From Candidatus Aenigmatarchaeota archaeon (lineage in GTDB: Archaea; Aenigmatarchaeota; Aenigmatarchaeia; GW2011-AR5): DNA of 64,000 bases. The notes beneath the pieces were generated by a model that did not search any database, was not told the DNA's origin, and saw only the letters and a list, made by a program, of their open reading frames with translations. The stretch is from contig JAPLUZ010000022.1 of assembly GCA_026397375.1 (NCBI GenBank), positions 24,234 to 88,233 on the forward strand. Reading direction: 5' to 3'. Below are positions 15,771 through 46,179 of the stretch, piece after piece. Each line of letters starts with the position of its first letter. The first letter of the stretch is position 1. The position numbers were made by a program, and so were the translations under genes.

Positions 15771-17003
15771 ATGAGTCGATTGGCAATGAAGCAAAGGACG
15801 ATAAAATTTTTACAGAAGTATTGGGCATTTTTTGCAATAATTCTAATAGTTGCTTTAGGTACACAAATCAGGCTTTTAGACTACCAATGGTCTTATCTGA
15901 GAAATATAGACTCCTACAATTTTGCAAGGCAGATGGAAGAAATATCGGCAAATGGAGGGCTGCCGGATGTAGATACTTTATCCCTTGCACCTTATGGAGC
16001 TGCAAGAGCAGGGGGCAGCATTGATTTTTACGTATACCTCGGCGCTTACACCTATAATTTTACCAGGCTGTTTATACCAAATTTGTCATGGTTTAATTTT
16101 CTCTTGTGGTTCCCCGCGATCCTTGCTTCGTTAAGCGCAGTGCCAATATATTTCATAGGAAAAACATTTTTTGACAGAAAAGCTGGTGTACTTGCAGCAT
16201 TTTTTCTGATATTTGATCCTTCCATAATATCTCGTACACTCGGCGGGGACCCGGACAGCGATGGCATAGTTCTGATAATGCCACTTATCGCTATGGCAAT
16301 TTTCCTCATCGCTTACAAGTATGCAAATAGCACAAAGAAGTTTGATACAAAATATATTTTGTATACGATATTATCTGGTATAGCAATGGGATTATGGGGG
16401 CTGACCTGGATAGGCTACTGGTATGTGCTCTGGCTTATAACGGGATTCTTGCTGGTGCCTATTATAGCTGAGATAATAAAAAAGAGGAAATTGAGTGCCA
16501 TTGGCAATTTTAAGCATGGCATCATTGTATTTTTTGTAACAATAATAATATTCTTCCTGATAACAATACCAGTTATTGGAACATTTGTTGTTACACAGAC
16601 ATTCTACGGGCCATTCTCCTTTGGCGAGATAAAAAGTGAAGAAAATAACCAGTTCCCCAACGTGTACGTATCTGTCGCCGAGTTACAATCATCAGGTGAT
16701 GTAAAAGATGTAATACAGCGTGCAATCGGAATGAATTTTAGTCAAAATGCGCTGGCAATTATTATTTCGCCGTTCTTTTTGATGATTTATGGTCTTATTT
16801 ACCTCATTTATTCCTACGCCAAAAAGAGGCAGCATTTTGACACGCTGGTATTGCTGCTAATATGGTTTGTCGGGCCTTTCATAGCAACAATCGCTGCTGT
16901 AAGATTTTCCGTTTTGTTTTCGGCACCAATAGCCATAGGAGCTGGAATTTTCCTGGCAAAGCTGCTGAGGATGATAACCGAGGGAGAAAAAATAGAGGAC
17001 TGA
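15771..17003 (+). CDS. aglB: Oligosaccharyltransferase AglB/STT3, N-terminal 12-TM part (split gene)
   Basis: 410 aa polytopic membrane protein; acidic loop motifs (GGDPDSDG, SVAE resembling the SVSE/TIXE motif); ends at TGA 4 nt before the next ORF, which is in a different frame. Confidence 0.55.
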   Translation: MSRLAMKQRTIKFLQKYWAFFAIILIVALGTQIRLLDYQWSYLRNIDSYNFARQMEEISANGGLPDVDTLSLAPYGAARAGGSIDFYVYLGAYTYNFTRLFIPNLSWFNFLLWFPAILASLSAVPIYFIGKTFFDRKAGVLAAFFLIFDPSIISRTLGGDPDSDGIVLIMPLIAMAIFLIAYKYANSTKKFDTKYILYTILSGIAMGLWGLTWIGYWYVLWLITGFLLVPIIAEIIKKRKLSAIGNFKHGIIVFFVTIIIFFLITIPVIGTFVVTQTFYGPFSFGEIKSEENNQFPNVYVSVAELQSSGDVKDVIQRAIGMNFSQNALAIIISPFFLMIYGLIYLIYSYAKKRQHFDTLVLLLIWFVGPFIATIAAVRFSVLFSAPIAIGAGIFLAKLLRMITEGEKIED

Positions 17004-17007
17004 TGAA

Positions 17008-17976
17008 ATGAAATACAAATATATTTATCTTGCAATAGTTTTCATATTCATAGGTTTTTTAATAAATAGTTTCTACATAGCCCCGTCAATAGATATAGTA
17101 AAAGGTGCGGGTCCCGTATTCTCTGAAAACTGGGTAAACTCCATGAACTGGATAAAAAACAATACAGCAGAATGTACAGTAATTGCTACTTATTGGGATC
17201 CAGGCCACTTTATAGCGGAAGTAGCCAGAAGGGCCACGGTTTTTGACGGCGCCCACCAAAATGATCTGTTTACAATAACAAGAGAGGGTAACCTCACGGA
17301 CAGTGAAATATTACAGCTTGCGCCAACAGGAAAATATTCAGTGCAGAAAAAAGAAGTAAATGGCACACTTTACACATTTGTAGCAACCGCCAGGATCCAG
17401 GATATAGGAACGTCACTCTCCACAAGCAACGAGACATTAGCATACGATATTCTAAAACGCTATAACAAACCAGGATGCAAAGAGATGTACTTTTTAGCAA
17501 CTGCGGACCTCATAGGAAAAGCCCACTGGTGGACATATTTTGCATCGTGGAATCCTGTGGACAAGGGAAAGGCTTCTGATTATCTTATGCTTGGACTTAG
17601 CCAGGCAAGACCCGTTGTGCAGCAGAATGCCATAGCCTATACTTTTGCATTTGGCCAGCAGCAGGCCTTTGTTATATACGATAGAAATGACACGCTTTCA
17701 GCGTATTTACAGCAGGGCAATCAGTTTGCCGACATAGAAAAACTGTTTTATTTCAGCAGAAACGGCCAGCCAACCCTTATTCAGAATCAAAATTCTCAGG
17801 TAAAGGGTATGATATGGCTAGATCCTAGCAGGCAAACAATGGTATTTATACCGCCCGAGTTGGAAGACGCAATATTCACACGCATGTTTTTCTTCAACGG
17901 CGCGGGGCTGCAAAAATTTGAATACGTAAACGCGTGGGGCGGAGAAGTTAAGCTATTCAGGATCCAGCTCAGCTGA
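17008..17976 (+). CDS. aglB: Oligosaccharyltransferase AglB/STT3, C-terminal part (TM13 plus soluble domain with WWDYG-like motif)
   Basis: One N-terminal TM helix then ATYWDPGHF (divergent WWDYG) and AYDILKRY (DxxK-like). Confidence 0.55.
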   Translation: MKYKYIYLAIVFIFIGFLINSFYIAPSIDIVKGAGPVFSENWVNSMNWIKNNTAECTVIATYWDPGHFIAEVARRATVFDGAHQNDLFTITREGNLTDSEILQLAPTGKYSVQKKEVNGTLYTFVATARIQDIGTSLSTSNETLAYDILKRYNKPGCKEMYFLATADLIGKAHWWTYFASWNPVDKGKASDYLMLGLSQARPVVQQNAIAYTFAFGQQQAFVIYDRNDTLSAYLQQGNQFADIEKLFYFSRNGQPTLIQNQNSQVKGMIWLDPSRQTMVFIPPELEDAIFTRMFFFNGAGLQKFEYVNAWGGEVKLFRIQLS

Positions 17977-33129: not shown

Positions 33130-34059
33130 ATGAAAATATCTGTCATAATTCCTACAAAGGACTACGATGAAGGACTTAGGAGATGCCTGACGAGCATTAG
33201 CAAGCAGGACTACAAAAATAAGGAAATTATAGTTGTCGGTACAAAAGAGGAGACAAGTAAAATAGCAAAAGAATTCGGCGCCAAATTTTTCCTTGACAAG
33301 GCAAAAACTATAGGCAATTCTTATTCGGTCGGCGCCAAAAATGCCAAAGGCGGCGTAGTAGCCTTTTTAGACGACGACTGCATTGCGCTAAAAAACTGGC
33401 TGACCAAGATAAACAAGGAATTCGAAAATGACAAGGATTTGATGGCATTTGGCGGGGAAGATATTATAGATGAGAAAAGATCTTCCTATTTTCAGACGGC
33501 CCTATTTCAGCTGGATATTCCAAGAATTTACAAGTCAATAGTTTATGGCAAAAGGGCCCGCGACAAATTACGCGCATGTAACATAGCTTACAGGAGAAGC
33601 GTTTTCAGCAAATTTGATTTTAACAAGGACCTTATAAGTTTACAGGAACCGGAGCTGCACCACCGCCTTTACGAGAGCGGGGCAAAGATGAAATTCGATC
33701 CCAGTATAATTGTATATCACGAAAGGCGAAAAAATATAAAATCCGTCTTCAAACAAATGTATAGAAACGGCAAAGCAAAAATAGCTGTTATAGGAATGCA
33801 CAAGAAAATGATAGCTCCATACGATATTTTGATGTTTCTTTCTATCGTGATAAGCTTGATATCCGTCATTTCACTTACGTTTACTTCAAGAATGTTGACA
33901 TACTGGGTAGCGCTTCTTTTGCTATATTTTATCCTGAAGCCAGTGATAATACTGATGAAGACAAGAAATATGAGGTTTTATTTTACTCTTTTTAAGATAG
34001 TATTTGTAAGAGAATTGGCTTATGCGCTTGGATTAATTTCCGGTATTTTCGGAAAATAG
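33130..34059 (+). CDS. GT2-family glycosyltransferase with C-terminal TM segments
   Basis: ISVIIPTKDYDEGL...AFLDDDC. Confidence 0.65.
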   Translation: MKISVIIPTKDYDEGLRRCLTSISKQDYKNKEIIVVGTKEETSKIAKEFGAKFFLDKAKTIGNSYSVGAKNAKGGVVAFLDDDCIALKNWLTKINKEFENDKDLMAFGGEDIIDEKRSSYFQTALFQLDIPRIYKSIVYGKRARDKLRACNIAYRRSVFSKFDFNKDLISLQEPELHHRLYESGAKMKFDPSIIVYHERRKNIKSVFKQMYRNGKAKIAVIGMHKKMIAPYDILMFLSIVISLISVISLTFTSRMLTYWVALLLLYFILKPVIILMKTRNMRFYFTLFKIVFVRELAYALGLISGIFGK

Positions 34060-35247: not shown

Positions 35248-37020
35248 CTATTTTTTCCAATTATCCTGCGGCACGTATTTTAGCGCCTCTTTTAGTTCTT
35301 GCTCTGAAAGGAACGGCTTCATATCGTACACAGGTCGTGCATAGCTTGCCTTTGGAAGCGTCCAATATGTGACAGGGACCTTGATATCAAGGAGTGCCGG
35401 GCCGTTGTTTCCCGAAAGCCATTTGATTGCCTCCTCAAGCTCGCTTGATTTTTCAACCATCCTTGCCGGAATGCCATAGGCATTTGCAACTTTCACAAAG
35501 TCAGGGGCGTCATAGCCGTCCACGCTGCCGATGAGTCTACCCTCAAAATTCTCTGTCTGGAACTGCGTGAGCATGCCAAGCGAATTGTTGTTGATGATGA
35601 TTATCTTCATCGGGATTTTATTCCGCACAATTGTTTGCAATTCCTGGATGTTGATCTGAAAACCACCATCGCCGCAAACCGCCCACACACGTCGCGAAGT
35701 GTCTGAAAGCCATGCCCCGATTGCGGTTGGAACTGCGCATCCCATCGGGCCCATACCTCCGTTTGTGAGCACAATCTGGCCTTTTTTCACCTTCCAGGAT
35801 TGGGCAAACCACATCTGGTGCGAACCCACATCCACACTGACTATGTCGCGCTCGCCCGCCACGGCGGAAACAACTTCTATCGCCTTGTTAGGGCTTATTT
35901 TCAAATGCCCGATTTTTTGCTCGTGGTGCTCGTATTTTTCCTTAAGCACGTTCAAGTGGCTTATCCATTCAGTTTTTACTTCCATCTTTGGCAGCGCATC
36001 CATCGTCTGTTTGAGGAAATTTTTGATGTCGACATTTATGGAAAGTTCTTCGCGCACCGAAGCCCCAAGCTCGTACTCGTCTATGTCCACATGCACGATT
36101 TTTGCGGCAGGGGCGAATTTTGCTGCTTGTACTCCCACTTGCCGGGAATCCAGCCTTGCTCCCAGGACGATTATCAGGTCAGCATTCGCAAGCGCAAGAT
36201 TGGAATACCGCTGCCCATATGTGCCGATAAACCCGTAATATAAAGGATTGTAATTCTCAACCGCATCCGTTCCCATGAGGCTTGCTACAAACGGGATTTT
36301 GGTTTTTGTGATAAATAATTCTACCTCATAAGTTGCCCCGGATAGCCTTACCCCATGCCCTAAAAGTAGCATCGGTCTTTTTGCCTCTGCCAGAAGGGAG
36401 GTGAACTTGGAAATCTGACTTGTGGTCGCATTCCTAGGCTTATTCATAGCGGCATGCTCTGCAGAGCCAAGAAATCCTGCCTGCGCATCAGGGGTTATTT
36501 CGGCCTTTTGCACGTCAAATGGAAAATCTAGCAGTACTGGGCCGTTCCGCCCGTGGGTTGCGATAAAAAAGGCTTTCTCAATCTCGTAGCGTGTTTTGGC
36601 AGGGTCAGATATCCGCACCGCGTACTTGGTTATCGGCCTTACTATGGACACTATGTCGGTCTCCTGAAAGCCAACCTGCCTGCGTTTGCCAGTTACATTG
36701 GACTCAAACGTGTTCACCTGTCCAGTTATGAAGATTACCGGCAATGACGCATAAAAGGCGCTCCCGATTCCAGTTATCAGGTTGGTCGCCCCGGGTCCGC
36801 TGGTTGCCATGGCAAGACCAGGCTTTTTGCTCACCACTGCCTGCCCTTCGGCTGCAAATGAGGTAGACTGCTCATGGTGCATGGTGTATAGCTTGAAATT
36901 CTTGCACGCACAGGAATCCGCCAAATAGCCAAGGGCGCCGCCGATTATGAAAAACCCATGGCTTATGCCGTTTGCTGTCAGGCACTCTACAACATAGTCT
37001 GAAACCTTCATTAAAAACAC
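35248..37020 (-). CDS. Thiamine-diphosphate-dependent acetolactate-synthase-like enzyme (YerE-like candidate branched-chain sugar synthase)
   Basis: 590 aa, ThDP enzyme architecture (N-terminal Pyr domain, central domain, C-terminal ThDP-binding GDGxF..N motif: CGDGGFQINIQEL); sits inside the CDP-sugar gene cluster. Confidence 0.6.
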   Translation of the reverse strand: MFLMKVSDYVVECLTANGISHGFFIIGGALGYLADSCACKNFKLYTMHHEQSTSFAAEGQAVVSKKPGLAMATSGPGATNLITGIGSAFYASLPVIFITGQVNTFESNVTGKRRQVGFQETDIVSIVRPITKYAVRISDPAKTRYEIEKAFFIATHGRNGPVLLDFPFDVQKAEITPDAQAGFLGSAEHAAMNKPRNATTSQISKFTSLLAEAKRPMLLLGHGVRLSGATYEVELFITKTKIPFVASLMGTDAVENYNPLYYGFIGTYGQRYSNLALANADLIIVLGARLDSRQVGVQAAKFAPAAKIVHVDIDEYELGASVREELSINVDIKNFLKQTMDALPKMEVKTEWISHLNVLKEKYEHHEQKIGHLKISPNKAIEVVSAVAGERDIVSVDVGSHQMWFAQSWKVKKGQIVLTNGGMGPMGCAVPTAIGAWLSDTSRRVWAVCGDGGFQINIQELQTIVRNKIPMKIIIINNNSLGMLTQFQTENFEGRLIGSVDGYDAPDFVKVANAYGIPARMVEKSSELEEAIKWLSGNNGPALLDIKVPVTYWTLPKASYARPVYDMKPFLSEQELKEALKYVPQDNWKK

Positions 37021-37063
37021 CGCTCATCTTATTTTTAAGGCTTTGCTTTCCAGTTCTTCATAA

Positions 37064-38005
37064 TCATTCCTTATAGAAATCCATATTCTTTTTAAACCAC
37101 TTAACAGTCTTCTTTAATCCCTCTTCTATCGTGTTCTCCGTCCTCCAGCCAAGCATTTTTTTCGCTTTTGAAGTGTCAGCTACCCAACACGAAGGCTCGT
37201 GGTCCCATCTTTTCTCCTTTTTTATCAACGGTTTCAACGCAGAGCCGGAAATTCTTATTATTTTGTTTGTCACGTCAAGGACGTTGTGCTGCCTGCCGGA
37301 GCCAAGATTTATGATTTCACCCCTTGATTTTCCAAGCTTTTTGGCAGCAGTTCTGTAGGCCCTGGTTACGTCCTCCACAAAAATAAAGTCCCTTACAGCC
37401 TTGGGAGTGTTCACAACAGGCCTTTTTTTGGCCATGCAGGAAAATATCGTCTGCGGTATCAGCCTTGTCGAACCTTCAAAATATCCGTAAATAGAGAAGG
37501 GTCTGAATGTGACAAGAGGTACATCCTCTTCTTTGGACCATGTCTGGCAAAGGAGCGTTGCAGCAGCCTTAGAGGACGCGTAAAAGCTCACTGGTTCCAG
37601 AGAATCTGTCTCCTTGATGGGATGGTTTTTTATTCCGTATTCCGACGAGCTGCCTGTATTGACAAACATATCCAAGGATTTTGGACACACTTTTAGAAGA
37701 TTAAGGATTCCCGTCAGGTTGGTCTTTATTATGTTTTCCCTGTCTTTCTGAAAATGATAACCGCCGTAGGTGGCCATGTGATATATAACGTCAGGTTTGT
37801 CGCTCTTTACTGCAGATTCCAGTGATGTTATGTCTAAGATATCGCCGGTGTGAACGTTCAAATCAGGAAAAATGTCCTTTATTCGCCACAAGTTAGAGGT
37901 TTTTCTCGTCATAACATGAACTTCATCACCATGACTGATAAGTTCCCTGGAAAGGCAGGCGCCCACAAAGCCCGTTGCGCCCGTTATCAAAACCCTGTCT
38001 GACAT
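37064..38005 (-). CDS. NAD(P)-dependent CDP-sugar 4-reductase/epimerase-like SDR (RfbJ/RfbS/YerF-like)
   Basis: ITGATGFVGACL, YASSK; divergent from rfbF. Confidence 0.5.
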   Translation of the reverse strand: MSDRVLITGATGFVGACLSRELISHGDEVHVMTRKTSNLWRIKDIFPDLNVHTGDILDITSLESAVKSDKPDVIYHMATYGGYHFQKDRENIIKTNLTGILNLLKVCPKSLDMFVNTGSSSEYGIKNHPIKETDSLEPVSFYASSKAAATLLCQTWSKEEDVPLVTFRPFSIYGYFEGSTRLIPQTIFSCMAKKRPVVNTPKAVRDFIFVEDVTRAYRTAAKKLGKSRGEIINLGSGRQHNVLDVTNKIIRISGSALKPLIKKEKRWDHEPSCWVADTSKAKKMLGWRTENTIEEGLKKTVKWFKKNMDFYKE

Positions 38006-38118
38006 AAGTAGGTTGACTTATCATTAAATTATTTAAAACGACCAAGGACGCGGGTTCTAAAGTGAGATTATAGGCTGTATAATAAGGGTATAAAAACTTT
38101 TCTCTGTTTAACTTTCAT

Positions 38119-38895
38119 ATGAAAGTTGCAATACTGTGTGGAGGCCTTGGTACAAGACTTAAGGAAGAGACAGAATTCCGGCCAAAACCCCTAGTGGAAA
38201 TAGGTGGTAAGCCTATATTGTGGCATATCATGAAAATTTACTCGTATGCAGGATTCAAAGATTTCGTTTTATGCCTGGGCTATAAGGGCGATATGATAAA
38301 GAATTATTTCTTGAATTATGAAACTACAGAAAATGACTTTACAATAGACTTTTCTAATAAAAAATCAATAACACTGCATAATAATTCAAATAAAACCGAA
38401 GATTGGAGAATAACATTTGCCGATACGGGATTAAATTCCATGACAGGCGCCAGGGTTAAAAGAATTGAAAAATTTATAGATGGAAATGAGTTCATGTTAA
38501 CCTATGGAGACGGTGTTGCCAATGTGAATGTTAATGATATTATTAAATTTCACAGAAACCACGATAAAATAGGAACTGTTCTCGGCGTGAGGCCACCGTC
38601 AAAATTTGGCGAGATGGCTTTGGATACCAACAGAGTTATATCTTTTGTAGAAAAACCAAATTCGACCCAGGGCTTTGTAAATGGCGGGTTTTTTGTATTC
38701 AAAAATGGGATTTTTGATTACTTGAATGAAAATGAAGACTGTATTTTAGAGAAAGAACCGCTGGAAAATCTTGCCACTAATGGACAACTCATGATGTATC
38801 CTCATGAAGGATTTTGGCAATGTATGGACACTTATAGAGACTTCTTGTATTTGAACCAGCTCTGGCCAAATGCCCCATGGAAACGGTTGCTATGA
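38119..38895 (+). CDS. rfbF: Glucose-1-phosphate cytidylyltransferase
   Basis: MKVAILCGGLGTRLKEETEFRPKPLVEIGGKPILWHIMKIYS closely matches the RfbF/DdhA N-terminus. Confidence 0.85.
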   Translation: MKVAILCGGLGTRLKEETEFRPKPLVEIGGKPILWHIMKIYSYAGFKDFVLCLGYKGDMIKNYFLNYETTENDFTIDFSNKKSITLHNNSNKTEDWRITFADTGLNSMTGARVKRIEKFIDGNEFMLTYGDGVANVNVNDIIKFHRNHDKIGTVLGVRPPSKFGEMALDTNRVISFVEKPNSTQGFVNGGFFVFKNGIFDYLNENEDCILEKEPLENLATNGQLMMYPHEGFWQCMDTYRDFLYLNQLWPNAPWKRLL

Positions 38896-39869
38896 ATGAA
38901 AACACATGGTCAGGAAAGAATGTTTTTGTAACGGGTAGCAGCGGCTTTCTAGGAGCTTGGGTTACAGAAAAATTGATAGGACAGGGTGCAAATGTTGTCA
39001 CTCTTTTGCGCGACGATGTGGCAAGATCGTACTTCCATTTAGAAGGACTAGACAAAAAAGTTACCACAGTAAGAGGTTCGCTGGAAGATTACTTACTGGT
39101 CGAAAGAATACTAAATGAGTATGAGATTGAGACTTGTTTTCATCTTGCCGCACAGACAATAGTTGGCACTGCTAATAGATCGCCTCTTTCGACATTTGAG
39201 TCAAACATAAGAGGTACTTGGAATGTTCTTGAGGCGGCAAGAAACAGCGAGGTTATGAAGGCAATGGTTGTGGCGTCTACGGATAAGGTTTATGGGGAAT
39301 CGACCAGTCTTCCATACAGGGAGACGGATCGGCTGGGTGCAAAACACCCCTACGACGTTTCTAAAGCGTGTGTGGATATGTTGTGCTCTTCCTATTTTCA
39401 TACCTATGGATTGTCGGTGGCAATAACCAGGTGCGGAAATATATTTGGCGGGGGGGACCTGAATTTTAACAGAATAGTTCCCGGTACAATACGTTCGGCA
39501 TTAATTAAAGAAAGACCCGTCATAAGGAGCGACGGCAAACTAGTTCGTGACTATGTATATGTGGAAGATATTGCCGATGCAAATATCCTTCTAGCTGATA
39601 CACTTCTTAGGGGAAGAGAAAAAGGCGAAGCATTTAATTTTAGTTTGGAACAGCCGCAAAGCGTAATTGAAGTAACCCAGAAGATATTAAGCGCTATGAA
39701 TTCTGATCTACAACCAATAATTTTGAATCAAGATTTGAAAGAAATCAATAAACAATATCTTTCTTCCGAAAAAGCAAGGGCGAGATTAGGCTGGAAACCA
39801 AAGTGGACTTTTGATTCGGGTATAAGAAAAACAATAGATTGGTATAAGAAATTTATCAATTCCTATTAG
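38877..39869 (+). CDS. rfbG: CDP-glucose 4,6-dehydratase
   Basis: WSGKNVFVTGSSGFLGAW..., YDVSK, GNIFGGGD; typical RfbG/DdhB pattern and position. Confidence 0.8.
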   Translation: METVAMNENTWSGKNVFVTGSSGFLGAWVTEKLIGQGANVVTLLRDDVARSYFHLEGLDKKVTTVRGSLEDYLLVERILNEYEIETCFHLAAQTIVGTANRSPLSTFESNIRGTWNVLEAARNSEVMKAMVVASTDKVYGESTSLPYRETDRLGAKHPYDVSKACVDMLCSSYFHTYGLSVAITRCGNIFGGGDLNFNRIVPGTIRSALIKERPVIRSDGKLVRDYVYVEDIADANILLADTLLRGREKGEAFNFSLEQPQSVIEVTQKILSAMNSDLQPIILNQDLKEINKQYLSSEKARARLGWKPKWTFDSGIRKTIDWYKKFINSY

Positions 39870-39875
39870 AATAGG

Positions 39876-41213
39876 ATGATTTTTATGTCGGATAAATTAG
39901 AAAGCCTTAAGGCTGAAATACTAAAAAAAGTAAGGGAGTATCAGAATACTCGTGAAGCTGAATCAAAAGGATTTGACAGAAAAAATCCAAAGGTTCCTGT
40001 ATCAGGAAAAGTTTTTGACGAAGAAGACGTAGCGACTCTTATAGATTCTTCTCTTGATTTTTGGTTAACCGCAGGTAAGTTTACTGATATGTTTGAAAGC
40101 GAACTTGCCAAACTCTTCGGTTTAAGGTACGCTTTAATGACCAATTCTGGGTCATCTGCCAATTTAATTGCGCTTTCGGCGCTGACAAGTAAATTTCTTG
40201 GTGATTCAAAATTAAATGACGGTGACGAGGTTATAACAGCAGCTGCGTCTTTTCCCACTACGGTGAATCCCATATTTCAATGCGGATTAGCACCGGTATT
40301 TTTAGACGTCGAACTTGATACGTACAATATAGATACTTCGAAAATAGAGGAGACGATAACAAATAAAACAAAAGCAATAATGATTGCGCATACGCTTGGA
40401 AATCCTTTTGATGTTAAAAAGATTACAAAAATATGTCAGGACTATAATCTATTTTTGATAGAGGACTGCTGCGACGCTCTTGGATCGAAATTTAATGGAA
40501 AAATGGTCGGAACATTTGGAGACGTTTCTACAATGAGTTTCTATCCGGCCCATCATATTACAACTGGCGAGGGCGGCGCGGTTTTTACCGACAACCCCAT
40601 GATCAAACGTGCAGCAGAATCAATCAGAGACTGGGGGCGTGATTGCTGGTGTAAAACCGGGTGCGACGGTACGTGCGGCAAAAGATTTGACTGGAAGCTG
40701 GGAAATTTGCCACACGGCTACGATCATAAGTATATCTACGCAAACGTAGGCTATAACCTCAAGGCTACAGATATGCAGGCCGCAATCGGGTGCTCACAAC
40801 TGAAGAAATTATCAAATTTTATAAAAATACGTAAAGATAATTTTGAATTTTACCTGAAATTCTTCAGAAAATACAATAATTTTTTCATTTTACCTAAAAT
40901 CTATGATGGTGCTGATATGAGTCCGTTTGGATATTTGATTAACATACATTCCGATGCACCATTCAAACGCCAAGAGTTGGTTAGATATTTAGAATCAAAG
41001 GGCATTGCCACAAGAATGCTCTTCGGCGGAAATTTAACAAAACAACCCGCATACATGGACAAAAAATACAGGGTTATTGGCGGTCTTGAAAATACAGACA
41101 GTCTCATGAACAATGCATTCTGGATTGGTGTTTATCCCGGCATAAATAACGAAATGCGAGAATATGTTGTGGAAATTTTTGCTGATTTTTTGGAAAATTT
41201 AGATAGTAATTAA
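39876..41213 (+). CDS. rfbH: CDP-6-deoxy-D-xylo-4-hexulose 3-dehydrase (E1, PMP-dependent, RfbH/DdhC)
   Basis: Long near-colinear match to Salmonella RfbH; SFYPAHHIT with His replacing the PLP-Lys, and four Cys of the 2Fe-2S motif WGRDCWCKTGCDGTCGKRF. Confidence 0.85.
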   Translation: MIFMSDKLESLKAEILKKVREYQNTREAESKGFDRKNPKVPVSGKVFDEEDVATLIDSSLDFWLTAGKFTDMFESELAKLFGLRYALMTNSGSSANLIALSALTSKFLGDSKLNDGDEVITAAASFPTTVNPIFQCGLAPVFLDVELDTYNIDTSKIEETITNKTKAIMIAHTLGNPFDVKKITKICQDYNLFLIEDCCDALGSKFNGKMVGTFGDVSTMSFYPAHHITTGEGGAVFTDNPMIKRAAESIRDWGRDCWCKTGCDGTCGKRFDWKLGNLPHGYDHKYIYANVGYNLKATDMQAAIGCSQLKKLSNFIKIRKDNFEFYLKFFRKYNNFFILPKIYDGADMSPFGYLINIHSDAPFKRQELVRYLESKGIATRMLFGGNLTKQPAYMDKKYRVIGGLENTDSLMNNAFWIGVYPGINNEMREYVVEIFADFLENLDSN

Positions 41214-41219
41214 TTTTTA

Positions 41220-41927
41220 TTAGTTATCAAATTTTTTGGTTAGTTTAAACAAAATTATATTTTTTATAAACTCAAGTACGATATAGAACTTTACATTTGA
41301 CTTTCCTTTTTTTCTTTTTGAGTATATCGATTGTACTTCACCTACTTTGAAATTTTTCTTTCTAGCTTTTACCAATAGTTCCGTGTCTATGAAAGAATCC
41401 AGTGCCCTTAATTTCAGTGACTCGTAGCAGCCCCTTTTCATGAGTTTTGGATAGCCGTTGATATCCCTGCTAATACCACCAAAAATTAGCGGACAAACAA
41501 AATAATTATAAGAAGCTGAAACGAATTTTCTGTAAAAATTATACTCCCTTGCCGTTCTTGTAACTTTGCATATATCCAGGTTTTCTTTTATTAATTTTTT
41601 GTAAACACTTAGTAATGCAGTGGCCGGAATTTCGTTATCGCCACCAGTCCAGCCAACAACTTCGCCTTTTGCGTGCTTCAGACCTTGCAGCAGCCCATTG
41701 CCGTACCCTATATTTTTATGTACGGTAACGACTTTTACCCTATCATTTCTTAATTTATCAAGTATTTCCCCTGTTTTGTCGCGAGAACCGTTATTAATGG
41801 CTATTATTTCATAGTTTATTTTATGTTTTTTCAGAAGATTGGAATGAAGTAGAATAACATCTTTTACATTATCTTCTTCGTTGTAGAAAGGTATGACAAC
41901 CGATAAATCATATTTCATATATCTCAT
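41220..41927 (-). CDS. GT2-family polyprenyl-phosphate sugar synthase (DPM1/GtrB-like)
   Basis: LSVVIPFYNEEDNV...; 235 aa. Confidence 0.6.
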   Translation of the reverse strand: MRYMKYDLSVVIPFYNEEDNVKDVILLHSNLLKKHKINYEIIAINNGSRDKTGEILDKLRNDRVKVVTVHKNIGYGNGLLQGLKHAKGEVVGWTGGDNEIPATALLSVYKKLIKENLDICKVTRTAREYNFYRKFVSASYNYFVCPLIFGGISRDINGYPKLMKRGCYESLKLRALDSFIDTELLVKARKKNFKVGEVQSIYSKRKKGKSNVKFYIVLEFIKNIILFKLTKKFDN

Positions 41928-41958
41928 CTTAGATTAGAACACGATCGTATTTAAAATA

Positions 41959-43614
41959 TTAAATATTGATGTCTGTGACATTGTAAACGAAGGTCGAATA
42001 GCCTAGAATAGCGTCTGGCGTTCTTTCTCTTAACCAGGAATAGCAATCCCTTCTAATCATGTTTAACATATCGATGGAAATTGCGTAGATCCCATTAGCA
42101 GGTTGGCAGCTGGCGTAAGAGAAATTACCATAATAATTCCAGAAAGATTTTGGAATTGGCGTGGATATGTACAGACTGGTTAAGTTATGCTGCTTTGCGT
42201 ACTTGCCTACTTCATTTATTCCCTGACCAATGTCTATGTTGGCGTCACTAAGCCACAAATAACCATTTTCAGGCTTTCCTATGAACTGGTTGAAATATGA
42301 CATATTGTAAGGCAGGAATGTCACTGCTTCAAACACGTACCATATGAGAAGTGCAATTATAAATAAATTCAGAATTCTTTTTTGATGTTTTTTTAGGTTC
42401 GCGGTTACTATGCTGCTTAAAATAACAAAAATAAACGGGTAGGCTATCATCAAATGTCTTAGACCTATGTCGAATCCGATAAAGAAAGATAAGAAGATAA
42501 AAGTAGCAATTATTGGAAGTACAATAAACAGCCAGTCTTTTTTCATCTTAATTTTCTTCGAAGCCAAAAATATTGTGAACATAAACAAGAATAAAAGGAT
42601 AGAAATGGGCGTTTTTATCAAGTAAGCAATTATGTAAAAATACCACCAGCCGTGTACCGACGTCTCACCCATTAGGAAGCTTATATGGCCTTCGGTAGAA
42701 TGCCATATGTTATATCCTAGGGCAGCATTCAGATACGCCGGAACAGGAACAGGAACATTCATTAAATTTGTTACTAAAGATTTCATGCCTTCGCTGTGAA
42801 ATGTCTGATTTATAAAATCCGTCGCCTTTTCATTTGAATGAACGACATTTATCATGCTGTCGAACTGGAATCCATAAAAAGCCCATATAACAAGAAAAGC
42901 AATTATGTAATAAATGACAGCCCTTTTAGCGGTTTTTAACGATATTTTTCCGAAATAAAAGAATAACACAAGTGTTATAGGTATTAACAGCAGAGCAGTG
43001 AATTTACTTAGCAGTGCAAGACCCAGGGCAAATCCTGCTATAATTAAAGATGATTTACTTGAATTTTTGAGAAGACACCAAAAGTAATAGACCGCTATAA
43101 ATATAAAAGTGGTTGCCACCAAATCACTGGTGACTATGGAAGAATTACCCAGTATAGTAGGCTCGAAGGAAAATAGAATCAGCGCGATAAGTGCTGCCTT
43201 GTTTCCATATAGTTTTCTTGACCATCTGAAAATAAAGAACCCCAAAAGCACTCCGGTAAGTGCTATGGGAAGCCTTGTTAGGAACAACAGATTATCCAGC
43301 CCATAGGCCTGTGCATTTGCTGACATGTCAAACGGCTTGTGGGACCAAACAGGATTTTTATCGAATATCAAAAAAATACTGTTTATGTAGTACGACAGAA
43401 CAGGATGAGACCTTAAAACGAAAGGACTGCCAGGGCCAAAGTCTTTTGTTTCTATAAGGTATTTTCCAACACCCGGATAAAACTGCTCATCACCGATCAT
43501 GCCGATATTCAGGATTATGTAAACGGATTGAATAAAATATATAAGTAGGAGAAGTGCGGCAAAGATCTCTACTCTATTTTTATAAATAAACTTGTAAATA
43601 TTTTTTGGAATCAT
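41959..43614 (-). CDS. GT-C fold membrane glycosyltransferase (ArnT/PMT-like, GT39/83-type)
   Basis: 551 aa, more than 10 TM, polytopic architecture typical of lipid-linked-sugar-dependent transferases; very AT-rich. Confidence 0.5.
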   Translation of the reverse strand: MIPKNIYKFIYKNRVEIFAALLLLIYFIQSVYIILNIGMIGDEQFYPGVGKYLIETKDFGPGSPFVLRSHPVLSYYINSIFLIFDKNPVWSHKPFDMSANAQAYGLDNLLFLTRLPIALTGVLLGFFIFRWSRKLYGNKAALIALILFSFEPTILGNSSIVTSDLVATTFIFIAVYYFWCLLKNSSKSSLIIAGFALGLALLSKFTALLLIPITLVLFFYFGKISLKTAKRAVIYYIIAFLVIWAFYGFQFDSMINVVHSNEKATDFINQTFHSEGMKSLVTNLMNVPVPVPAYLNAALGYNIWHSTEGHISFLMGETSVHGWWYFYIIAYLIKTPISILLFLFMFTIFLASKKIKMKKDWLFIVLPIIATFIFLSFFIGFDIGLRHLMIAYPFIFVILSSIVTANLKKHQKRILNLFIIALLIWYVFEAVTFLPYNMSYFNQFIGKPENGYLWLSDANIDIGQGINEVGKYAKQHNLTSLYISTPIPKSFWNYYGNFSYASCQPANGIYAISIDMLNMIRRDCYSWLRERTPDAILGYSTFVYNVTDINI

Positions 43615-43626
43615 TTAACTCACGCA

Positions 43627-45183
43627 CTAAATTTTTTTATAGATAAGAATATAACCGTTCTGCTCCGGACTAAACCTATGGTGAACCGGGTCTGGAAATT
43701 CTGACCATTGCTCGCCGGTATTATGAACAGTAAAAATCTCATATTTTGCTGTATTGATGTAAAGATCTAGGTTAGCATTCGGCGATGTTGTGGCATTATC
43801 TATAATAATCCATCTGTAAGATTCGTTAAGTTCGGATAAGTTGTTTCTAGATATTATATTTTCTTGGGATGCATTAAGATACATTACAAAGGCTTGTGGT
43901 GGCACATAATTCGACATCAGAAATATTTTATCCCCCTTAACATAGGTCTGCGAAACGACTTTTATTACGGATTCGCTGGAATATTCATAATGATGGGTTG
44001 CCTCGTACAAATAATCGAAAAAATAATACCTGGGCTGTAAGCTTCTTGATAAAAATCTGTCAGTAACTTCCTGCGTGGCATACGAGCCCAGATCAACATT
44101 TCTAATGAAATTTAATGGAATAATATTGATAAAGTTTGTGAAAACTAAAATAATCAGAATGATAAATCCTAGAAACTTCATTGCATTATTCTTTCTTGCA
44201 AAGAACATTTGAGAAATAACATATGCAATAAGAATAGATGCAAGCGGAAGTAAAACAATAAGTTTTCTTATGGAAATAGGTCCTGTAACACTGATAAGAG
44301 AGGACAGCACCAGGATGGTGATTATTATTGTCAAGAAGAGACGATGCTCGGTACTTAATTTTCTCCAGTTAATTTTGTTCTTTTTTACAAGATACAGACC
44401 AAGCACAACAATAGCAGGCGGCAGGAAGAACACCAGCAGATAGAAAACACCAGATGCAATATTCAGCAGGAGAAACCCCGTGTTGAAAACCGATGAAAGA
44501 GGGCTAAGGGTCTGCCTAGAGTACAGCCACAAGATAATTAGCGGCAGTGAAAATATCCCAATCAAAATGAATGGGCTGAAAATATTTTTGATGTTGTTCC
44601 TTCTTTCAATAATAGAAAATAAAAATAAGCCGGCTATTAGATAAATGCCCACCTCTGCATGCGTGTAAAATAGAATTACAGAAGAAATTATGAATGGCAG
44701 CATGGAATTCTTCCTGTTTTTCATGAATCTGATAAAGAAGAAAATTGTCAACAGGGAAAAGAACATCAGCATGGAATAGTACCGTCCGTGGCGGGCATGA
44801 AGATAAAACAACGTGGAAAATATCACAAGCAGGAAGGCTATTATTCTTGTCTTCCTATCCTTTACGTTTTCTTTCAAAAAGACGAAGTAGAGTACTAGAA
44901 ATAATATGCCAAATACGGCGGATACAAACCTAATGGAAAATTGGTTAAGACCAAAAACCAGTACTGACAAAGAAGTTAGATAAAGGTGTGGAAGCGTGAC
45001 AAGAGAGACCTGAAGATCACCAGGATACCCGATTTTTATTATTTCCTGAGACCTTTCCACGACGTAGGCTTCGTCGGTGGGGCCAATAAACCTGTCGCCT
45101 AAATTATAAAATAAAAGAAGTGCGGCCAGAACTAAACATATAATAAAAAAACATTTCTCATAATTTTTAGATGTGAAATGCAT
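43627..45183 (-). CDS. GT-C fold membrane glycosyltransferase (ArnT/PMT-like), paralog of the preceding gene
   Basis: 518 aa, more than 10 TM. Confidence 0.5.
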   Translation of the reverse strand: MHFTSKNYEKCFFIICLVLAALLLFYNLGDRFIGPTDEAYVVERSQEIIKIGYPGDLQVSLVTLPHLYLTSLSVLVFGLNQFSIRFVSAVFGILFLVLYFVFLKENVKDRKTRIIAFLLVIFSTLFYLHARHGRYYSMLMFFSLLTIFFFIRFMKNRKNSMLPFIISSVILFYTHAEVGIYLIAGLFLFSIIERRNNIKNIFSPFILIGIFSLPLIILWLYSRQTLSPLSSVFNTGFLLLNIASGVFYLLVFFLPPAIVVLGLYLVKKNKINWRKLSTEHRLFLTIIITILVLSSLISVTGPISIRKLIVLLPLASILIAYVISQMFFARKNNAMKFLGFIILIILVFTNFINIIPLNFIRNVDLGSYATQEVTDRFLSRSLQPRYYFFDYLYEATHHYEYSSESVIKVVSQTYVKGDKIFLMSNYVPPQAFVMYLNASQENIISRNNLSELNESYRWIIIDNATTSPNANLDLYINTAKYEIFTVHNTGEQWSEFPDPVHHRFSPEQNGYILIYKKI

Positions 45184-46169: not shown

Positions 46170-46179
46170 ATCAAAAAGT

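What the first reader, a model, noticed from the sequence alone, without database searches (positions are those of the whole stretch)
35248..41213. CDP-3,6-dideoxyhexose pathway (RfbF-RfbG-RfbH) paired with a YerE-like ThDP enzyme: candidate branched-chain deoxysugar synthesis in an archaeon
RfbF (Glc-1-P cytidylyltransferase), RfbG (CDP-glucose 4,6-dehydratase) and RfbH/E1 are present. RfbH shows the diagnostic His-for-Lys substitution in SFYPAHHIT and the four-Cys 2Fe-2S motif of the PMP-dependent 3-dehydrase. Divergently encoded next to them are an SDR reductase and a 590-aa acetolactate-synthase-like ThDP enzyme. In Yersinia pseudotuberculosis the same combination (ddhABC plus the ThDP-dependent YerE and reductase YerF) makes the two-carbon-branched 3,6-dideoxysugar yersiniose. 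3,6-Dideoxyhexoses are classically bacterial O-antigen sugars. An archaeal N-glycan or S-layer glycan carrying such a sugar, possibly C-branched, would be unusual. No E3 (RfbI-type Fe-S flavoprotein reductase) is encoded in the cluster.
Basis: partly seen in the sequence, partly recalled or inferred. Interest (0 to 1): 0.7.

Follow-up and report, generated by a model that had tools for sequence, protein, structure and literature searches.

The report
Archaeal branched dideoxy-sugar gene cassette
A small-genome (DPANN) archaeon carries five adjacent genes that most likely make a rare carbon-branched 3,6-dideoxy sugar for its surface glycans, a sugar type described so far only in bacteria; this version lacks the usual partner reductase and uses a different final reductase.

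Summary
Five ORFs sit exactly at 35248-41213: a ThDP enzyme and an SDR on the minus strand, and RfbF, a short CDP-glucose 4,6-dehydratase-like SDR and RfbH/E1 on the plus strand. RfbH has the His-for-Lys change and all four [2Fe-2S] cysteines.

The ThDP enzyme is not an acetolactate synthase. It scores below the curated AHAS cut-off. It groups with Yersinia/Pseudomonas YerE against AHAS in 100% of NJ bootstraps and shares YerE-specific indels. In 46 of 55 well-flanked loci from Bacteria and Archaea, its relatives lie next to rfbF, rfbG and rfbH.

- The neighbouring SDR is not a YerF orthologue. It is one of three mutually exclusive SDR partner types and looks like an NADPH-dependent reductase.
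- Missing E3 is not a local gap. E3 is absent from all 55 well-flanked related loci, although the E1 iron-sulfur ligands are invariant, so an unlinked electron donor is implied.

The host is an Aenigmarchaeota MAG. The cassette lies in a 34-kb glycosylation island that begins with AglB, and in related DPANN genomes it directly abuts AglB.

Likely product: a CDP-activated 4-C-branched 3,6-dideoxyhexose of the yersiniose type. No biochemistry exists for this clade.

The parts
35248..37020 (-). YerE-like ThDP/FAD-type carboligase (590-aa ORF from GTG; probable ATG start at 37011, 587 aa)
   Evidence: Has the TPP_enzyme_N, _M and _C domains. TIGR00118 scores 443.6 bits, below the cut-off of 538. 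Best PDB hit is 5AHK, a member of the YerE orthogroup, at 336.6 bits. Groups with YerE against AHAS at 100% bootstrap. Shares with YerE a 6-aa insertion, HHEQ, GDGG and Phe at the AHAS Trp574 position.
37064..38005 (-). Type-A extended SDR, putative NADPH-dependent ketoreductase partner of the ThDP enzyme; not a YerF orthologue
   Evidence: Epimerase family by Pfam. Reaches no NCBIfam equivalog cut-off. Motifs are TGATGFVG, 'HVMTRKT' (Arg/Lys and no Asp after beta2), GSSSEYG and YASSK. 40-48% identical orthologues lie immediately upstream of the ThDP gene in 30 loci. No hit to YerF.
38006..38118 (.). Divergent intergenic region of 113 bp, with A/T-rich TATA-like elements facing each way
   Evidence: Read directly from the sequence: TATAAAAA upstream of rfbF, and TTTAAATAATTTAA upstream of the SDR on the other strand. 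Promoter function was not tested.
38119..38895 (+). RfbF, glucose-1-phosphate cytidylyltransferase
   Evidence: TIGR02623 scores 338 bits, above the cut-off of 300. 47-53% identical to the RfbF of Yersinia, Geobacter and Methanococcoides cassettes.
38877..39869 (+). Short-type CDP-glucose 4,6-dehydratase (RfbG-like). An alternative ATG at 38892 would give an ATGA overlap with the rfbF stop.
   Evidence: TIGR02622 is the best NCBIfam hit at 229.7 bits, below the cut-off of 278. Has the Asp-Lys pair (STDKVYG) and YDVSK, as in CDP-glucose dehydratases 1RKX and 1WVG. The S/T-D-K motif is conserved in all 20 short-type and 23 Yersinia-type RfbG sequences. The short and Yersinia types replace each other in cassettes, 14 versus 34 loci.
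39876..41213 (+). RfbH/E1, PMP- and [2Fe-2S]-dependent CDP-4-keto-6-deoxyglucose 3-dehydrase
   Evidence: NF011936 scores 680 bits, above the cut-off of 423. Scores 520 bits against 3BCX. H220, C193, C251, C253 and C261 are present here and invariant in 70 of 70 cassette homologues.
41220..41927 (-). GT2 glycosyltransferase of the polyprenyl-phosphate type; a candidate transferase for the sugar, by position only
   Evidence: Glycos_transf_2 by Pfam. Weak NCBIfam hits to ArnC, PgfS and Dol-P hexose transferase. Not conserved next to cassettes elsewhere.
41959..45183 (-). Two tandem PMT_2/Agl23-like GT-C membrane proteins; possible outside-face transferases, by position only
   Evidence: PMT_2 and PMT hits by Pfam; TIGR03663 hit is weak. 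Not conserved in other loci.
15771..17976 (+). AglB oligosaccharyltransferase, apparently split into two ORFs; marks the start of the roughly 34-kb glycosylation island that holds the cassette
   Evidence: STT3 Pfam hit for 15771-17003. The second ORF, 17008-17976, carries YWDPG. AglB directly abuts the cassette in related DPANN loci L002/L003, and lies about 2-4.5 kb away in L010 and L001/L012.

Best explanation
The five genes form a biosynthetic cassette for a CDP-activated, C-4 carbon-branched 3,6-dideoxyhexose of the yersiniose type, destined for the archaeon's cell-surface glycans.

Proposed steps:
1. RfbF makes CDP-D-glucose from glucose-1-phosphate and CTP.
2. The short RfbG-type SDR converts it to CDP-4-keto-6-deoxy-D-glucose.
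3. RfbH/E1 removes the 3-OH, using PMP, His in place of Lys, and a [2Fe-2S] cluster. The two electrons come from a donor encoded elsewhere, most plausibly a general ferredoxin or flavodoxin system, because no dedicated E3 exists. The product is CDP-4-keto-3,6-dideoxy-D-glucose.
4. The ThDP enzyme decarboxylates a 2-oxo acid. Pyruvate is the default, since no genes for a special donor are nearby. It adds the acyl carbanion to the C-4 ketone, giving a tertiary alcohol with an acetyl branch.
5. The adjacent NADPH-type SDR reduces the side-chain ketone. It acts as an analogue of YerF, not an orthologue.
6. Glycosyltransferases of the island, and finally AglB, place the sugar on a dolichol-linked or protein-linked glycan.

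Steps 1 and 3 rest on curated-threshold family membership plus diagnostic residues. Steps 2 and 4 rest on motifs, phylogeny and conserved gene neighbourhood. Steps 5 and 6, the electron donor and the donor 2-oxo acid are inferences.
For: Family assignments:
- RfbF and RfbH pass curated equivalog cut-offs.
- RfbH keeps H220 and the C-X57-C-X1-C-X7-C ligands.
- RfbG has the Asp-Lys pair typical of CDP-glucose 4,6-dehydratases, conserved in all short-type homologues.

The ThDP enzyme is YerE-like:
- Its best solved relative is 5AHK.
- Close homologues of 5AHK in Pseudomonas protegens and Yersinia sit in the canonical cassette E3-RfbF-RfbG-RfbH-YerE-YerF.
- The NJ split of the sugar-cluster ThDP enzymes from AHAS/Gcl/PoxB has 100% support in 500 bootstraps.
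- It shares YerE-specific signatures.

Gene neighbourhood: of 55 species-representative loci with at least 4 kb on both flanks, 51 have RfbH, 51 have RfbF, 48 have RfbG and 46 have all three. The same five genes recur in DPANN (L002), Methanotrichaceae (L043) and Geobacter (L005).

The SDR:
- Three SDR types sit directly beside the ThDP gene and never co-occur: type A 19 loci, type B (YerF-like) 6, type C 14. This argues for equivalent roles.
- Type A has an intact Ser-Tyr-Lys triad, Arg after beta2 and no dehydratase acid/base pair.

E3-independent 3-dehydrases have a precedent: SpnQ works with ferredoxin or flavodoxin reductase pairs (review PMC8987622).

N-glycosylation link: AglB is in the same island and directly adjacent to the cassette in L002/L003.

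YerE chemistry is taken from PMC12247030 and PMC9306805.
Against: - No enzyme of this clade has been characterised. The window protein is only about 35% identical to PpYerE and about 36% to plant AHAS. Its placement depends on intermediate sequences and on an NJ tree with only three AHAS sequences, none of them archaeal.
- The review states that two YerE-like candidates, RhopE and SpirE, did not accept ketones when expressed heterologously.
- RfbG is below its equivalog cut-off.
- The SDR's nearest characterised relatives are 4,6-dehydratases and epimerases, not known side-chain reductases. In L060, L023 and L039 a type-A SDR is present without any RfbG within 10 kb, which is unexplained.
- No electron donor for E1 is identified.
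- The transferases next to the cassette are not conserved elsewhere, so attachment to an N-glycan rests on position only.
- No archaeal glycan with a 3,6-dideoxy or C-branched sugar appears in the 2024 review.
Confidence: 0.65

Rival explanations
1. The ThDP enzyme is an ordinary acetolactate/acetohydroxyacid synthase for branched-chain amino acid or acetoin metabolism, and lies beside sugar genes by chance.
For: All its top NCBIfam hits are AHAS large-subunit models. Databases annotate relatives as acetolactate synthase. Its raw identity to plant AHAS (36%) equals its identity to PpYerE (35%).
Against: It scores below every AHAS cut-off, as does a Yersinia orthologue of YerE. DPANN+AHAS has 0% bootstrap support, against 100% for grouping with YerE. 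It carries YerE-type indels and has Phe in place of the AHAS Trp574 equivalent. No ilvN or ilvC lies in the window. Linkage to rfbF, rfbG and rfbH is conserved in 46 of 55 loci across two domains.
Confidence: 0.03
2. The cassette makes an unbranched 3,6-dideoxyhexose of the paratose, abequose or ascarylose type. The 313-aa SDR is the C-4 ketoreductase, and the ThDP enzyme has some other, non-branching role.
For: The SDR belongs to the extended NDP-sugar SDR family, which includes 4-ketoreductases, and is not a YerF orthologue. RfbF/G/H loci without any ThDP gene are common, about 13 of 29, so plain dideoxyhexose pathways exist in the same gene pool.
Against: Type-A SDRs sit immediately upstream of the ThDP gene and often overlap it. 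They are mutually exclusive with YerF-like SDRs. Only one of the 13 ThDP-less RfbH loci has a type-A-like hit at or above 190 bits (L128, 207 bits). A conserved 590-aa ThDP enzyme with an intact catalytic Glu and ThDP motif would have no role.
Confidence: 0.1
3. The same cassette logic applies, but the ThDP enzyme uses a donor other than pyruvate, such as a longer or functionalised 2-oxo acid as ErwE and MMAR_2332 do. Together with the non-YerF reductase, this would give a branched sugar different from yersiniose.
For: Characterised YerE-like enzymes differ widely in donor preference (PMC12247030). The window clade is a separate deep branch from Yersinia YerE. Three different reductase types occur.
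Against: No aldolase or dehydrogenase genes for a special donor lie near the cassette, unlike the erw cluster described in PMC9306805. The neighbours are glycosyltransferases and methyltransferases.
Confidence: 0.2
4. In this E3-less clade the ThDP/FAD enzyme also supplies the electrons for E1, by oxidising pyruvate through its flavin. It would thus replace E3 as well as branch the sugar, or replace E3 instead of branching.
For: E3 is absent from all 55 well-flanked ThDP-linked loci, while the E1 Fe-S ligands are invariant. The enzyme keeps the central FAD-type domain. Electron transfer from hydroxyethyl-ThDP to FAD is a known side reaction in AHAS (my own recollection, not checked here).
Against: In an RfbH-selected sample, about 13 of 29 loci have neither E3 nor a ThDP gene within 10 kb. 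E3-less E1 enzymes therefore do not generally depend on a ThDP neighbour. In Yersinia and Pseudomonas, YerE coexists with E3.
Confidence: 0.04

Closest known systems
Yersiniose A pathway of Yersinia pseudotuberculosis (ddhD/E3, ddhA, ddhB, ddhC/E1, yerE, yerF), seen here as the identical cassette in Yersinia canariae (L007) and Pseudomonas protegens (L008)
   Same: RfbF is 47-48% identical and RfbH/E1 51-52% identical, with the same His and Cys residues. A ThDP enzyme of the same clade is encoded next to them, with an SDR next to the ThDP gene.
   Different: There is no E3. RfbG is a short, 330-aa, divergent type only 29% identical. The ThDP enzyme is only 36-37% identical by BLAST. The SDR has no detectable similarity to YerF. 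The host is archaeal, and the context is AglB and dolichol-type glycosylation rather than an O-antigen/Gtr context.
PpYerE from Pseudomonas protegens. I recall that PDB 5AHK is this enzyme, deposited as 'acetolactate synthase II large subunit'. The review confirms that a PpYerE structure exists but does not give the code.
   Same: It is the best solved-structure match, at 336.6 bits over the full length. It shares the 6-residue insertion after TGQVN, HHEQ, GDGG and Phe at the AHAS Trp574 position.
   Different: Identity is about 35%. The window enzyme belongs to a distinct DPANN sub-clade with 100% bootstrap support. That sub-clade sits within a large uncharacterised group from anaerobic bacteria and methanogens.
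ErwE (erwiniose), MMAR_2332 (caryophyllose) and JanthE (PDB 8RPH): YerE-like enzymes with longer-chain donors
   Same: They carry out the same type of ThDP carboligation onto a keto sugar or ketone (PMC12247030, PMC9306805). JanthE is a detectable homologue at 254.6 bits.
   Different: Genes supplying the donor (aldolase, dehydrogenase) accompany erwE but are absent here. JanthE is more distant from the window enzyme than PpYerE or even plant AHAS.
SpnQ, the TDP-sugar 3-dehydrase of spinosyn biosynthesis
   Same: It is an E1-type 3-dehydrase that works without a dedicated E3, using general ferredoxin or flavodoxin reductase pairs (PMC8987622). It is the precedent for the electron supply proposed here.
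   Different: SpnQ acts on a dTDP-2,6-dideoxy substrate in an actinomycete secondary-metabolite pathway. The window protein is a close relative of CDP-specific E1, at 520 bits to 3BCX.
Biosynthetic acetohydroxyacid synthase large subunit (IlvB, IlvI, IlvG; plant AHAS)
   Same: Same three-domain fold family, 29-36% identity, and conserved catalytic Glu and ThDP motif.
   Different: The window enzyme is below the TIGR00118 cut-off. It lacks the Trp574-equivalent and has RLDSRQ in place of the RFDDR context. It has the YerE insertion, no small-subunit gene nearby, and is separated from AHAS at 100% bootstrap.

Membership tests
YerE-like ThDP-dependent carboligases (decarboxylase superfamily) | Three-domain ThDP enzyme with a catalytic Glu and a GDG...NN ThDP-binding motif | tested here: met
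   TPP_enzyme_N, _M and _C are present. HHEQ and GDGG...NN are present.
YerE-like ThDP-dependent carboligases (decarboxylase superfamily) | Groups phylogenetically with YerE-orthogroup sequences (PDB 5AHK and the Yersinia/Pseudomonas cassette ThDP enzymes) and not with AHAS, Gcl or PoxB | tested here: met
   NJ tree of 28 sequences and 562 columns with 500 bootstraps: 100% for the split, 0% for DPANN+AHAS. Caveat: only three AHAS sequences, none archaeal, and a distance method.
YerE-like ThDP-dependent carboligases (decarboxylase superfamily) | Encoded in a cluster with the genes that make the CDP-4-keto-3,6-dideoxyglucose acceptor (ddhA, ddhB, ddhC) | tested here: met
   The window itself. 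In 46 of 55 well-flanked related loci all three genes are present.
YerE-like ThDP-dependent carboligases (decarboxylase superfamily) | Catalyses transfer of an acyl anion equivalent from a 2-oxo acid to the C-4 ketone of the CDP sugar | not testable with these tools
   Needs an enzyme assay. Chemistry is known for YpYerE (PMC12247030, PMC9306805).
E1 / RfbH / DdhC (CDP-4-keto-6-deoxyglucose 3-dehydrase) | Curated equivalog score, His in place of the PLP-binding Lys, and the C-X57-C-X1-C-X7-C [2Fe-2S] motif | tested here: met
   NF011936 scores 680 bits, above 423. Alignment to 3BCX shows AHH and CC...CxCxxxCxxxC. The columns are invariant in 70 of 70 homologues.
E1 / RfbH / DdhC (CDP-4-keto-6-deoxyglucose 3-dehydrase) | A dedicated E3 reductase partner (DdhD/AscD/RfbI: Fer2 + FAD_binding_6 + NAD_binding_1) encoded alongside | tested here: not met
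   None in the 64-kb window. None in 55 of 55 related loci. Present in the Yersinia and Pseudomonas cassettes. The rest of the genome could not be searched.
RfbF / DdhA glucose-1-phosphate cytidylyltransferase | Equivalog HMM above its trusted cut-off | tested here: met
   TIGR02623 scores 338 bits, above 300.25, over the full length.
RfbG / DdhB CDP-glucose 4,6-dehydratase | Equivalog HMM above its trusted cut-off | tested here: not met
   TIGR02622 scores 229.7 bits, below 278.45, although it is the best hit. PDB scores to 2HUN, annotated as a hypothetical dTDP-glucose 4,6-dehydratase (148.8), and to 1RKX, CDP-type (143.6), are about equal.
RfbG / DdhB CDP-glucose 4,6-dehydratase | Catalytic Tyr-xxx-Lys plus the Asp-Lys acid/base pair that replaces the Asp-Glu of dTDP-glucose dehydratases | tested here: met
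   STDKVYG and YDVSK are present. S/T-D-K is conserved in 20 short-type and 23 Yersinia-type sequences. That the Asp-Lys pair is diagnostic is my recollection of the 1RKX and 1WVG literature.
YerF (side-chain ketoreductase of yersiniose synthesis) | Sequence homology to YerF | tested here: not met
   No BLAST hit at E<1e-5 to Yersinia or Pseudomonas YerF. The direct comparison gives E=1.1. YerF-like SDRs (type B) exist in other cassettes, e.g. Methanococcoides L004.
YerF (side-chain ketoreductase of yersiniose synthesis) | An NAD(P)H-dependent SDR encoded directly beside the ThDP gene, one per cassette | tested here: met
   It lies 52 nt upstream of the ThDP gene's probable ATG start (37011) on the same strand. 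It has an intact Ser/Tyr/Lys triad and Arg after beta2. It is mutually exclusive with type B and type C SDRs.
Biosynthetic acetohydroxyacid synthase large subunit | Equivalog score above cut-off, an adjacent regulatory small subunit (ilvN/ilvH), and the Trp that selects 2-ketobutyrate | tested here: not met
   TIGR00118 scores 443.6 bits, below 538.35, and all other AHAS models are far below their cut-offs. No ACT-type small subunit is in the window. Phe replaces the Trp574 equivalent.
Archaeal N-glycosylation (Agl) gene island | Physical linkage to the oligosaccharyltransferase AglB | tested here: met
   AglB at 15771-17976 lies about 17 kb upstream in the same island. It directly abuts the cassette on the same strand in L002/L003, and lies about 2-4.5 kb away in L010 and L001/L012. 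Transfer of this sugar to a glycan was not tested.

The most novel reading that the evidence does not exclude
DPANN archaea (Aenigmarchaeota, Micrarchaeota) and several methanogen lineages decorate their AglB-dependent surface glycans with a carbon-branched 3,6-dideoxyhexose. This would be the first such sugar in Archaea. It would be made by a streamlined pathway in which the iron-sulfur dehydrase E1 runs on a general low-potential electron carrier instead of its dedicated E3. A reductase unrelated to YerF would finish the branch, possibly giving a stereoisomer or sugar not yet described.
Probability: 0.4. Interest if true: 0.65.

Novelty: new variant of a known kind. Interest (0 to 1): 0.5.

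Why it matters
Carbon-branched 3,6-dideoxyhexoses such as yersiniose, erwiniose and caryophyllose are known only from bacterial lipopolysaccharides and related glycolipids. The 2024 review of archaeal N-glycans lists no CDP-derived, 3,6-dideoxy or C-branched sugar. A conserved five-gene cassette next to AglB in genome-reduced, host-dependent DPANN archaea suggests that this costly sugar matters for their cell surface, and perhaps for contact with their hosts.

The survey also gives three general results:
- A large uncharacterised sister group of YerE exists in anaerobes of both domains.
- Its members never carry E3, yet keep every Fe-S ligand of E1.
- They have recruited three unrelated SDRs as the neighbour of the ThDP enzyme.

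This gives enzymologists concrete candidates for E3-independent C-3 deoxygenation. It also provides new ketone-accepting ThDP carboligases, which are sought as biocatalysts for chiral tertiary alcohols (PMC12247030).

Tried and rejected
- Exact-sequence lookup of the 590-aa ORF found nothing, because the public record starts at the downstream ATG. The homology search then found the 100%-identical 587-aa protein.
- The in-silico survey of more than 200 YerE-like clusters (Krug et al. 2024, Angew. Chem. e202403535) is not held in the library. I could not check whether archaeal clusters are already listed there.
- A paper search for '5AHK' gave only an unrelated paper. The identity 5AHK = PpYerE rests on my memory plus the cassette context of its close homologues.
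- The first tree script timed out and the second failed on a truncated ORF. They were redone.
- I first treated the SDR as YerF-like. BLAST rejected this.
- I asked whether the type-A SDR could be the 4,6-dehydratase, because L060, L023 and L039 lack RfbG. Its motifs reject this: GSSSEYG, no Asp-Lys or Asp-Glu pair, and Arg after beta2. The missing RfbG in those loci remains unexplained.
- I asked whether the ThDP flavoenzyme could replace E3. This is made unlikely by RfbH loci that have neither E3 nor a ThDP gene.
- I asked whether the adjacent GT2 and GT-C genes are the dedicated transferases. They are not conserved in other loci, so this is kept only as a positional suggestion.
- A motif scan for ferredoxins in the window gave only spurious antisense ORFs.

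Full report
**Observation.**
- The minus strand carries a 590-aa ThDP enzyme (35248-37020) with all three ThDP-enzyme domains. Fifty-two nucleotides upstream of its probable ATG start (37011) lies a 313-aa extended SDR (37064-38005).
- After a 113-bp A/T-rich intergenic region, the plus strand carries rfbF (38119-38895), a 330-aa SDR (38877-39869) and rfbH (39876-41213). These three are tightly packed: a 19-nt ORF overlap (only ATGA if rfbG starts at 38892), then a 6-nt spacer.
- RfbF and RfbH pass NCBI's curated equivalog cut-offs, at 338 > 300 and 680 > 423 bits.
- RfbH aligns over its full length with Yersinia pseudotuberculosis E1 (3BCX, 520 bits). It shows SFYPAHHIT and the cysteines equivalent to C193, C251, C253 and C261.
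- The 330-aa SDR has CDP-glucose 4,6-dehydratase as its best family hit but falls below the cut-off, at 229.7 < 278 bits. It does carry the Asp-Lys pair (STDKVYG) and YDVSK seen in the solved CDP-glucose dehydratases.
- No E3-type reductase and no credible ferredoxin is encoded anywhere in the 64-kb window.

**Organism.** A protein 100% identical to the ThDP enzyme, starting at the ATG three codons downstream, is recorded from a Candidatus Aenigmarchaeota MAG on a 103-kb contig. The window itself is plainly archaeal. It encodes Cdc6/Orc1, family-B DNA polymerase, HMG-CoA synthase with thiolase, AglB/STT3, CDC48, an Lhr-type helicase and a RadA/B-like protein, on both sides of the cassette. The nearest homologues of the cassette genes are from other DPANN archaea; the ThDP enzyme is 59-78% identical to them. 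Contamination is therefore unlikely.

**Is the ThDP enzyme YerE-like or an acetolactate synthase?** Five lines of evidence point to YerE.
1. It scores below the cut-off of every AHAS model, with TIGR00118 at 443.6 < 538 bits. A Yersinia orthologue of YerE behaves the same way, at 405.6 bits.
2. Its best solved relative is 5AHK at 336.6 bits, ahead of plant AHAS at about 309 and E. coli IlvB at 277. I recall 5AHK as PpYerE. Independently of the name, its 83% and 68% identical homologues in Pseudomonas protegens and Yersinia sit in the canonical cassette E3-RfbF-RfbG-RfbH-ThDP-SDR. That is the yersiniose arrangement described in the literature (PMC12247030, PMC9306805).
3. In an NJ tree of 28 sequences and 562 columns, the split between all sugar-cluster ThDP enzymes and {IlvB, IlvI, Arabidopsis AHAS, Gcl, PoxB} has 100% support in 500 bootstraps. 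DPANN+AHAS is recovered in 0%. Raw identity alone would not decide this: the window enzyme is 35% identical to PpYerE and 36% to plant AHAS. Its 44-46% identical relatives in Geobacter and Methanococcoides are clearly closer to YerE (41-44%) than to IlvI (32-34%).
4. The window clade and YerE share features absent from AHAS, Gcl and PoxB:
   - a six-residue insertion, TGQVNT[FYH]E....RQxGFQE;
   - HHEQ in place of RHEQ;
   - an extra residue in R(L/M)DxRQTG;
   - GDGG in place of the GDGS of AHAS;
   - Phe where AHAS has the substrate-selecting Trp574.
5. Gene neighbourhood. A scan of one genome per GTDB species found 538 relatives. Of the best 80 loci, 55 have at least 4 kb on both sides. Among those 55, 51 have RfbH, 51 have RfbF, 48 have RfbG and 46 have all three. 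The hosts include Micrarchaeota, Methanotrichaceae, Methanoregula and other Methanomicrobia. They also include many mostly anaerobic bacteria: Geobacter, Elusimicrobiota, Clostridia, Paenibacillus, Omnitrophota, Campylobacterales and CPR.

The archaeal sequences fall in at least three separate places in the tree, which suggests repeated transfer between domains.

**The SDR next to the ThDP gene.** The 313-aa SDR has no detectable similarity to YerF of Yersinia or Pseudomonas. Across the surveyed loci, three unrelated SDR types sit directly beside the ThDP gene:
- type A, as in the window, 40-48% identical and immediately upstream: 19 of 55 loci;
- type B, YerF-like and immediately downstream, e.g. 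in Methanococcoides: 6 of 55;
- type C, as in the closest Micrarchaeota relative: 14 of 55.

No locus has two types. This pattern of mutual exclusion at a fixed position suggests that they do the same job by non-orthologous displacement.

Type-A proteins have an intact Ser/Tyr/Lys triad (GSSSEYG, YxxSK) and a near-invariant Arg with no Asp after beta-strand 2, which points to NADP(H). They have no dehydratase acid/base pair. Both RfbG types always have S/T-D-K.

I therefore infer an NADPH-dependent ketoreductase acting on the acyl branch. This is an inference. In three loci (L060, L023, L039) a type-A SDR occurs without any RfbG within 10 kb, which I cannot explain.

**The missing E3.** E3 is absent from the window and also from all 55 well-flanked related loci. 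Yet in 70 of 70 RfbH homologues from these cassettes, H220 and the four Fe-S cysteines are invariant. Electron input is therefore still required and must come from an unlinked donor.

I tested one attractive alternative, that the ThDP flavoenzyme itself replaces E3. In a sample of metagenomic loci selected through RfbH, 29 have at least 5 kb on both sides. None of them has E3, 16 have a ThDP-like gene, and about 13 have neither. E3-less E1 enzymes thus do not depend on a ThDP neighbour.

The precedent is SpnQ, which uses general ferredoxin or flavodoxin reductase pairs (PMC8987622). Many of the named hosts are anaerobes, which fits a low-potential ferredoxin as donor. This is inference.

**Proposed mechanism.**
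1. RfbF makes CDP-glucose.
2. The short RfbG makes CDP-4-keto-6-deoxyglucose.
3. E1, with an external two-electron donor, makes CDP-4-keto-3,6-dideoxyglucose.
4. The ThDP enzyme decarboxylates pyruvate and adds the hydroxyethyl carbanion to C-4. Pyruvate is the default donor because no genes for a special donor are nearby, unlike the erw cluster.
5. The type-A SDR reduces the acetyl branch.

The product would be a CDP-4-C-(1-hydroxyethyl)-3,6-dideoxyhexose, of the yersiniose type. Its stereochemistry cannot be predicted, and a different donor is possible.

**Destination of the sugar.** The cassette lies in a glycosylation island of about 34 kb (15771-50115). The island starts with AglB and contains a flippase-like protein, eleven glycosyltransferase-family genes (GT2, GT4, and two PMT_2/GT-C proteins), methyltransferases and a heptose-nucleotide pathway. 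In a related DPANN genome (L002/L003), AglB, the type-A SDR, the ThDP enzyme, RfbF, RfbG, RfbH and a GT2 lie head to tail on one strand. AglB is also about 2-4.5 kb from the cassette in L001/L012 and L010. This supports use in AglB-dependent glycans, but it is positional evidence. The GT2 and two GT-C genes flanking the window cassette are not conserved elsewhere.

**Comparison with what is known, and novelty.** The pathway logic is that of yersiniose synthesis. YerE-like clusters have been catalogued in more than 200 cases, as the review reports (PMC12247030). I could not read that survey, so I do not know whether archaeal clusters are listed.

Compared with the canonical cassette, this one differs in five ways:
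- it has no E3;
- it has a divergent short RfbG;
- its reductase is unrelated to YerF;
- its ThDP enzyme belongs to an uncharacterised deep branch;
- it sits in an archaeal AglB context.

The 2024 review of archaeal N-glycans mentions no CDP-derived, 3,6-dideoxy or C-branched sugar. I class the finding as a new variant of a known kind. It is computationally well supported, has no biochemical support, and is not unique to this genome.

**Limits.**
- The tree is distance-based, with three AHAS sequences and none from Archaea.
- Only 64 kb of the genome could be searched for E3, ferredoxins or an ilv operon.
- Two YerE-like candidates, RhopE and SpirE, reportedly failed to accept ketones in vitro, so membership of the clade does not guarantee the activity.
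- The identities of the electron donor, the 2-oxo acid donor, the SDR substrate and the glycan acceptor are all inferred.

Noticed in passing
window 45237-49032 (minus strand): A nucleotide-heptose pathway lies next to the cassette. It comprises an HddA-like GHMP kinase (48034-49032), GmhA (47453-48037), a GmhB::HddC fusion protein (46180-47472) and a heptose-epimerase-like SDR (45237-46169). All score below the equivalog cut-offs. A heptose is known in the Thermoplasma N-glycan (PMC11407970).
   Followed up: partly
window 15771-17003 and 17008-17976 (+): AglB appears split into two ORFs. The first is the STT3 membrane domain (410 aa). The second (322 aa) carries YWDPG in place of the WWDYG motif. 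A TGA stop is followed 4 nt later by an ATG. This is either a real split gene or a sequencing error. L001 shows a similar two-gene AglB.
   Followed up: partly
window 14552-15724 (+); L002 4675-5730: A geranylgeranyl-reductase-family FAD protein lies directly upstream of AglB. An FAD oxidoreductase occupies the same position next to AglB in the related DPANN locus L002. It is a candidate polyprenol/dolichol reductase.
   Followed up: no
L009-L088 (genome scan), summarised: Three unrelated SDR families (type A as in the window, type B YerF-like, type C as in L001:7620-8513) occupy the position next to YerE-like genes and never co-occur. Sixteen of 55 loci have none of the three.
   Followed up: yes
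L060 7816-13062; L023 and L039: These cassettes have RfbF, a type-A SDR, the ThDP enzyme and RfbH, but no recognisable CDP-glucose 4,6-dehydratase within 10 kb. The type-A SDR lacks dehydratase motifs, so the source of the 4-keto-6-deoxy intermediate there is unexplained.
   Followed up: partly
L094-L173 (metagenome scan by RfbH): None of the 29 well-flanked RfbH loci has an E3 gene, and about 13 also lack any ThDP gene. E3-less E1 systems therefore appear common in environmental genomes. The sample is biased towards relatives of the query alignment.
   Followed up: partly
window 31094-31621 (-); L005 11773-12510 and 12 other loci: An FkbM-family methyltransferase recurs near YerE-like cassettes, and lies immediately after the ThDP gene in Geobacter. 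It may O-methylate the sugar or the glycan.
   Followed up: no
window 41220-45183 (-); L007 12632-16267: A polyprenyl-phosphate-type GT2 and two tandem PMT_2/Agl23-like GT-C proteins follow rfbH. Yersinia has GtrA, a GtrB-like GT2 and a large membrane protein after yerF. Both suggest delivery through a lipid-phosphate-linked single sugar, but the proteins are not orthologous.
   Followed up: partly
window 21192-22136 (-), 24762-26795 (+), 49243-50115 (+): The same island holds further nucleotide-sugar genes: a GDP-fucose-synthase-like SDR (309 bits, below cut-off), two more 4,6-dehydratase/epimerase-like SDRs and a second sugar-1-phosphate nucleotidylyltransferase. The glycan probably contains several deoxy sugars.
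   Followed up: no
window 36001-38000 versus 26001-34000 and 38001-46000: The ThDP/SDR segment has higher G+C (0.467) than the surrounding island (0.335-0.40). It is close to, and slightly above, the housekeeping regions (0.42-0.455).
   Followed up: no
window 50146-51993 (+): A 615-aa protein with an N-terminal lamin-tail domain lies at the edge of the glycosylation island. It is a possible secreted or surface glycoprotein substrate.
   Followed up: no
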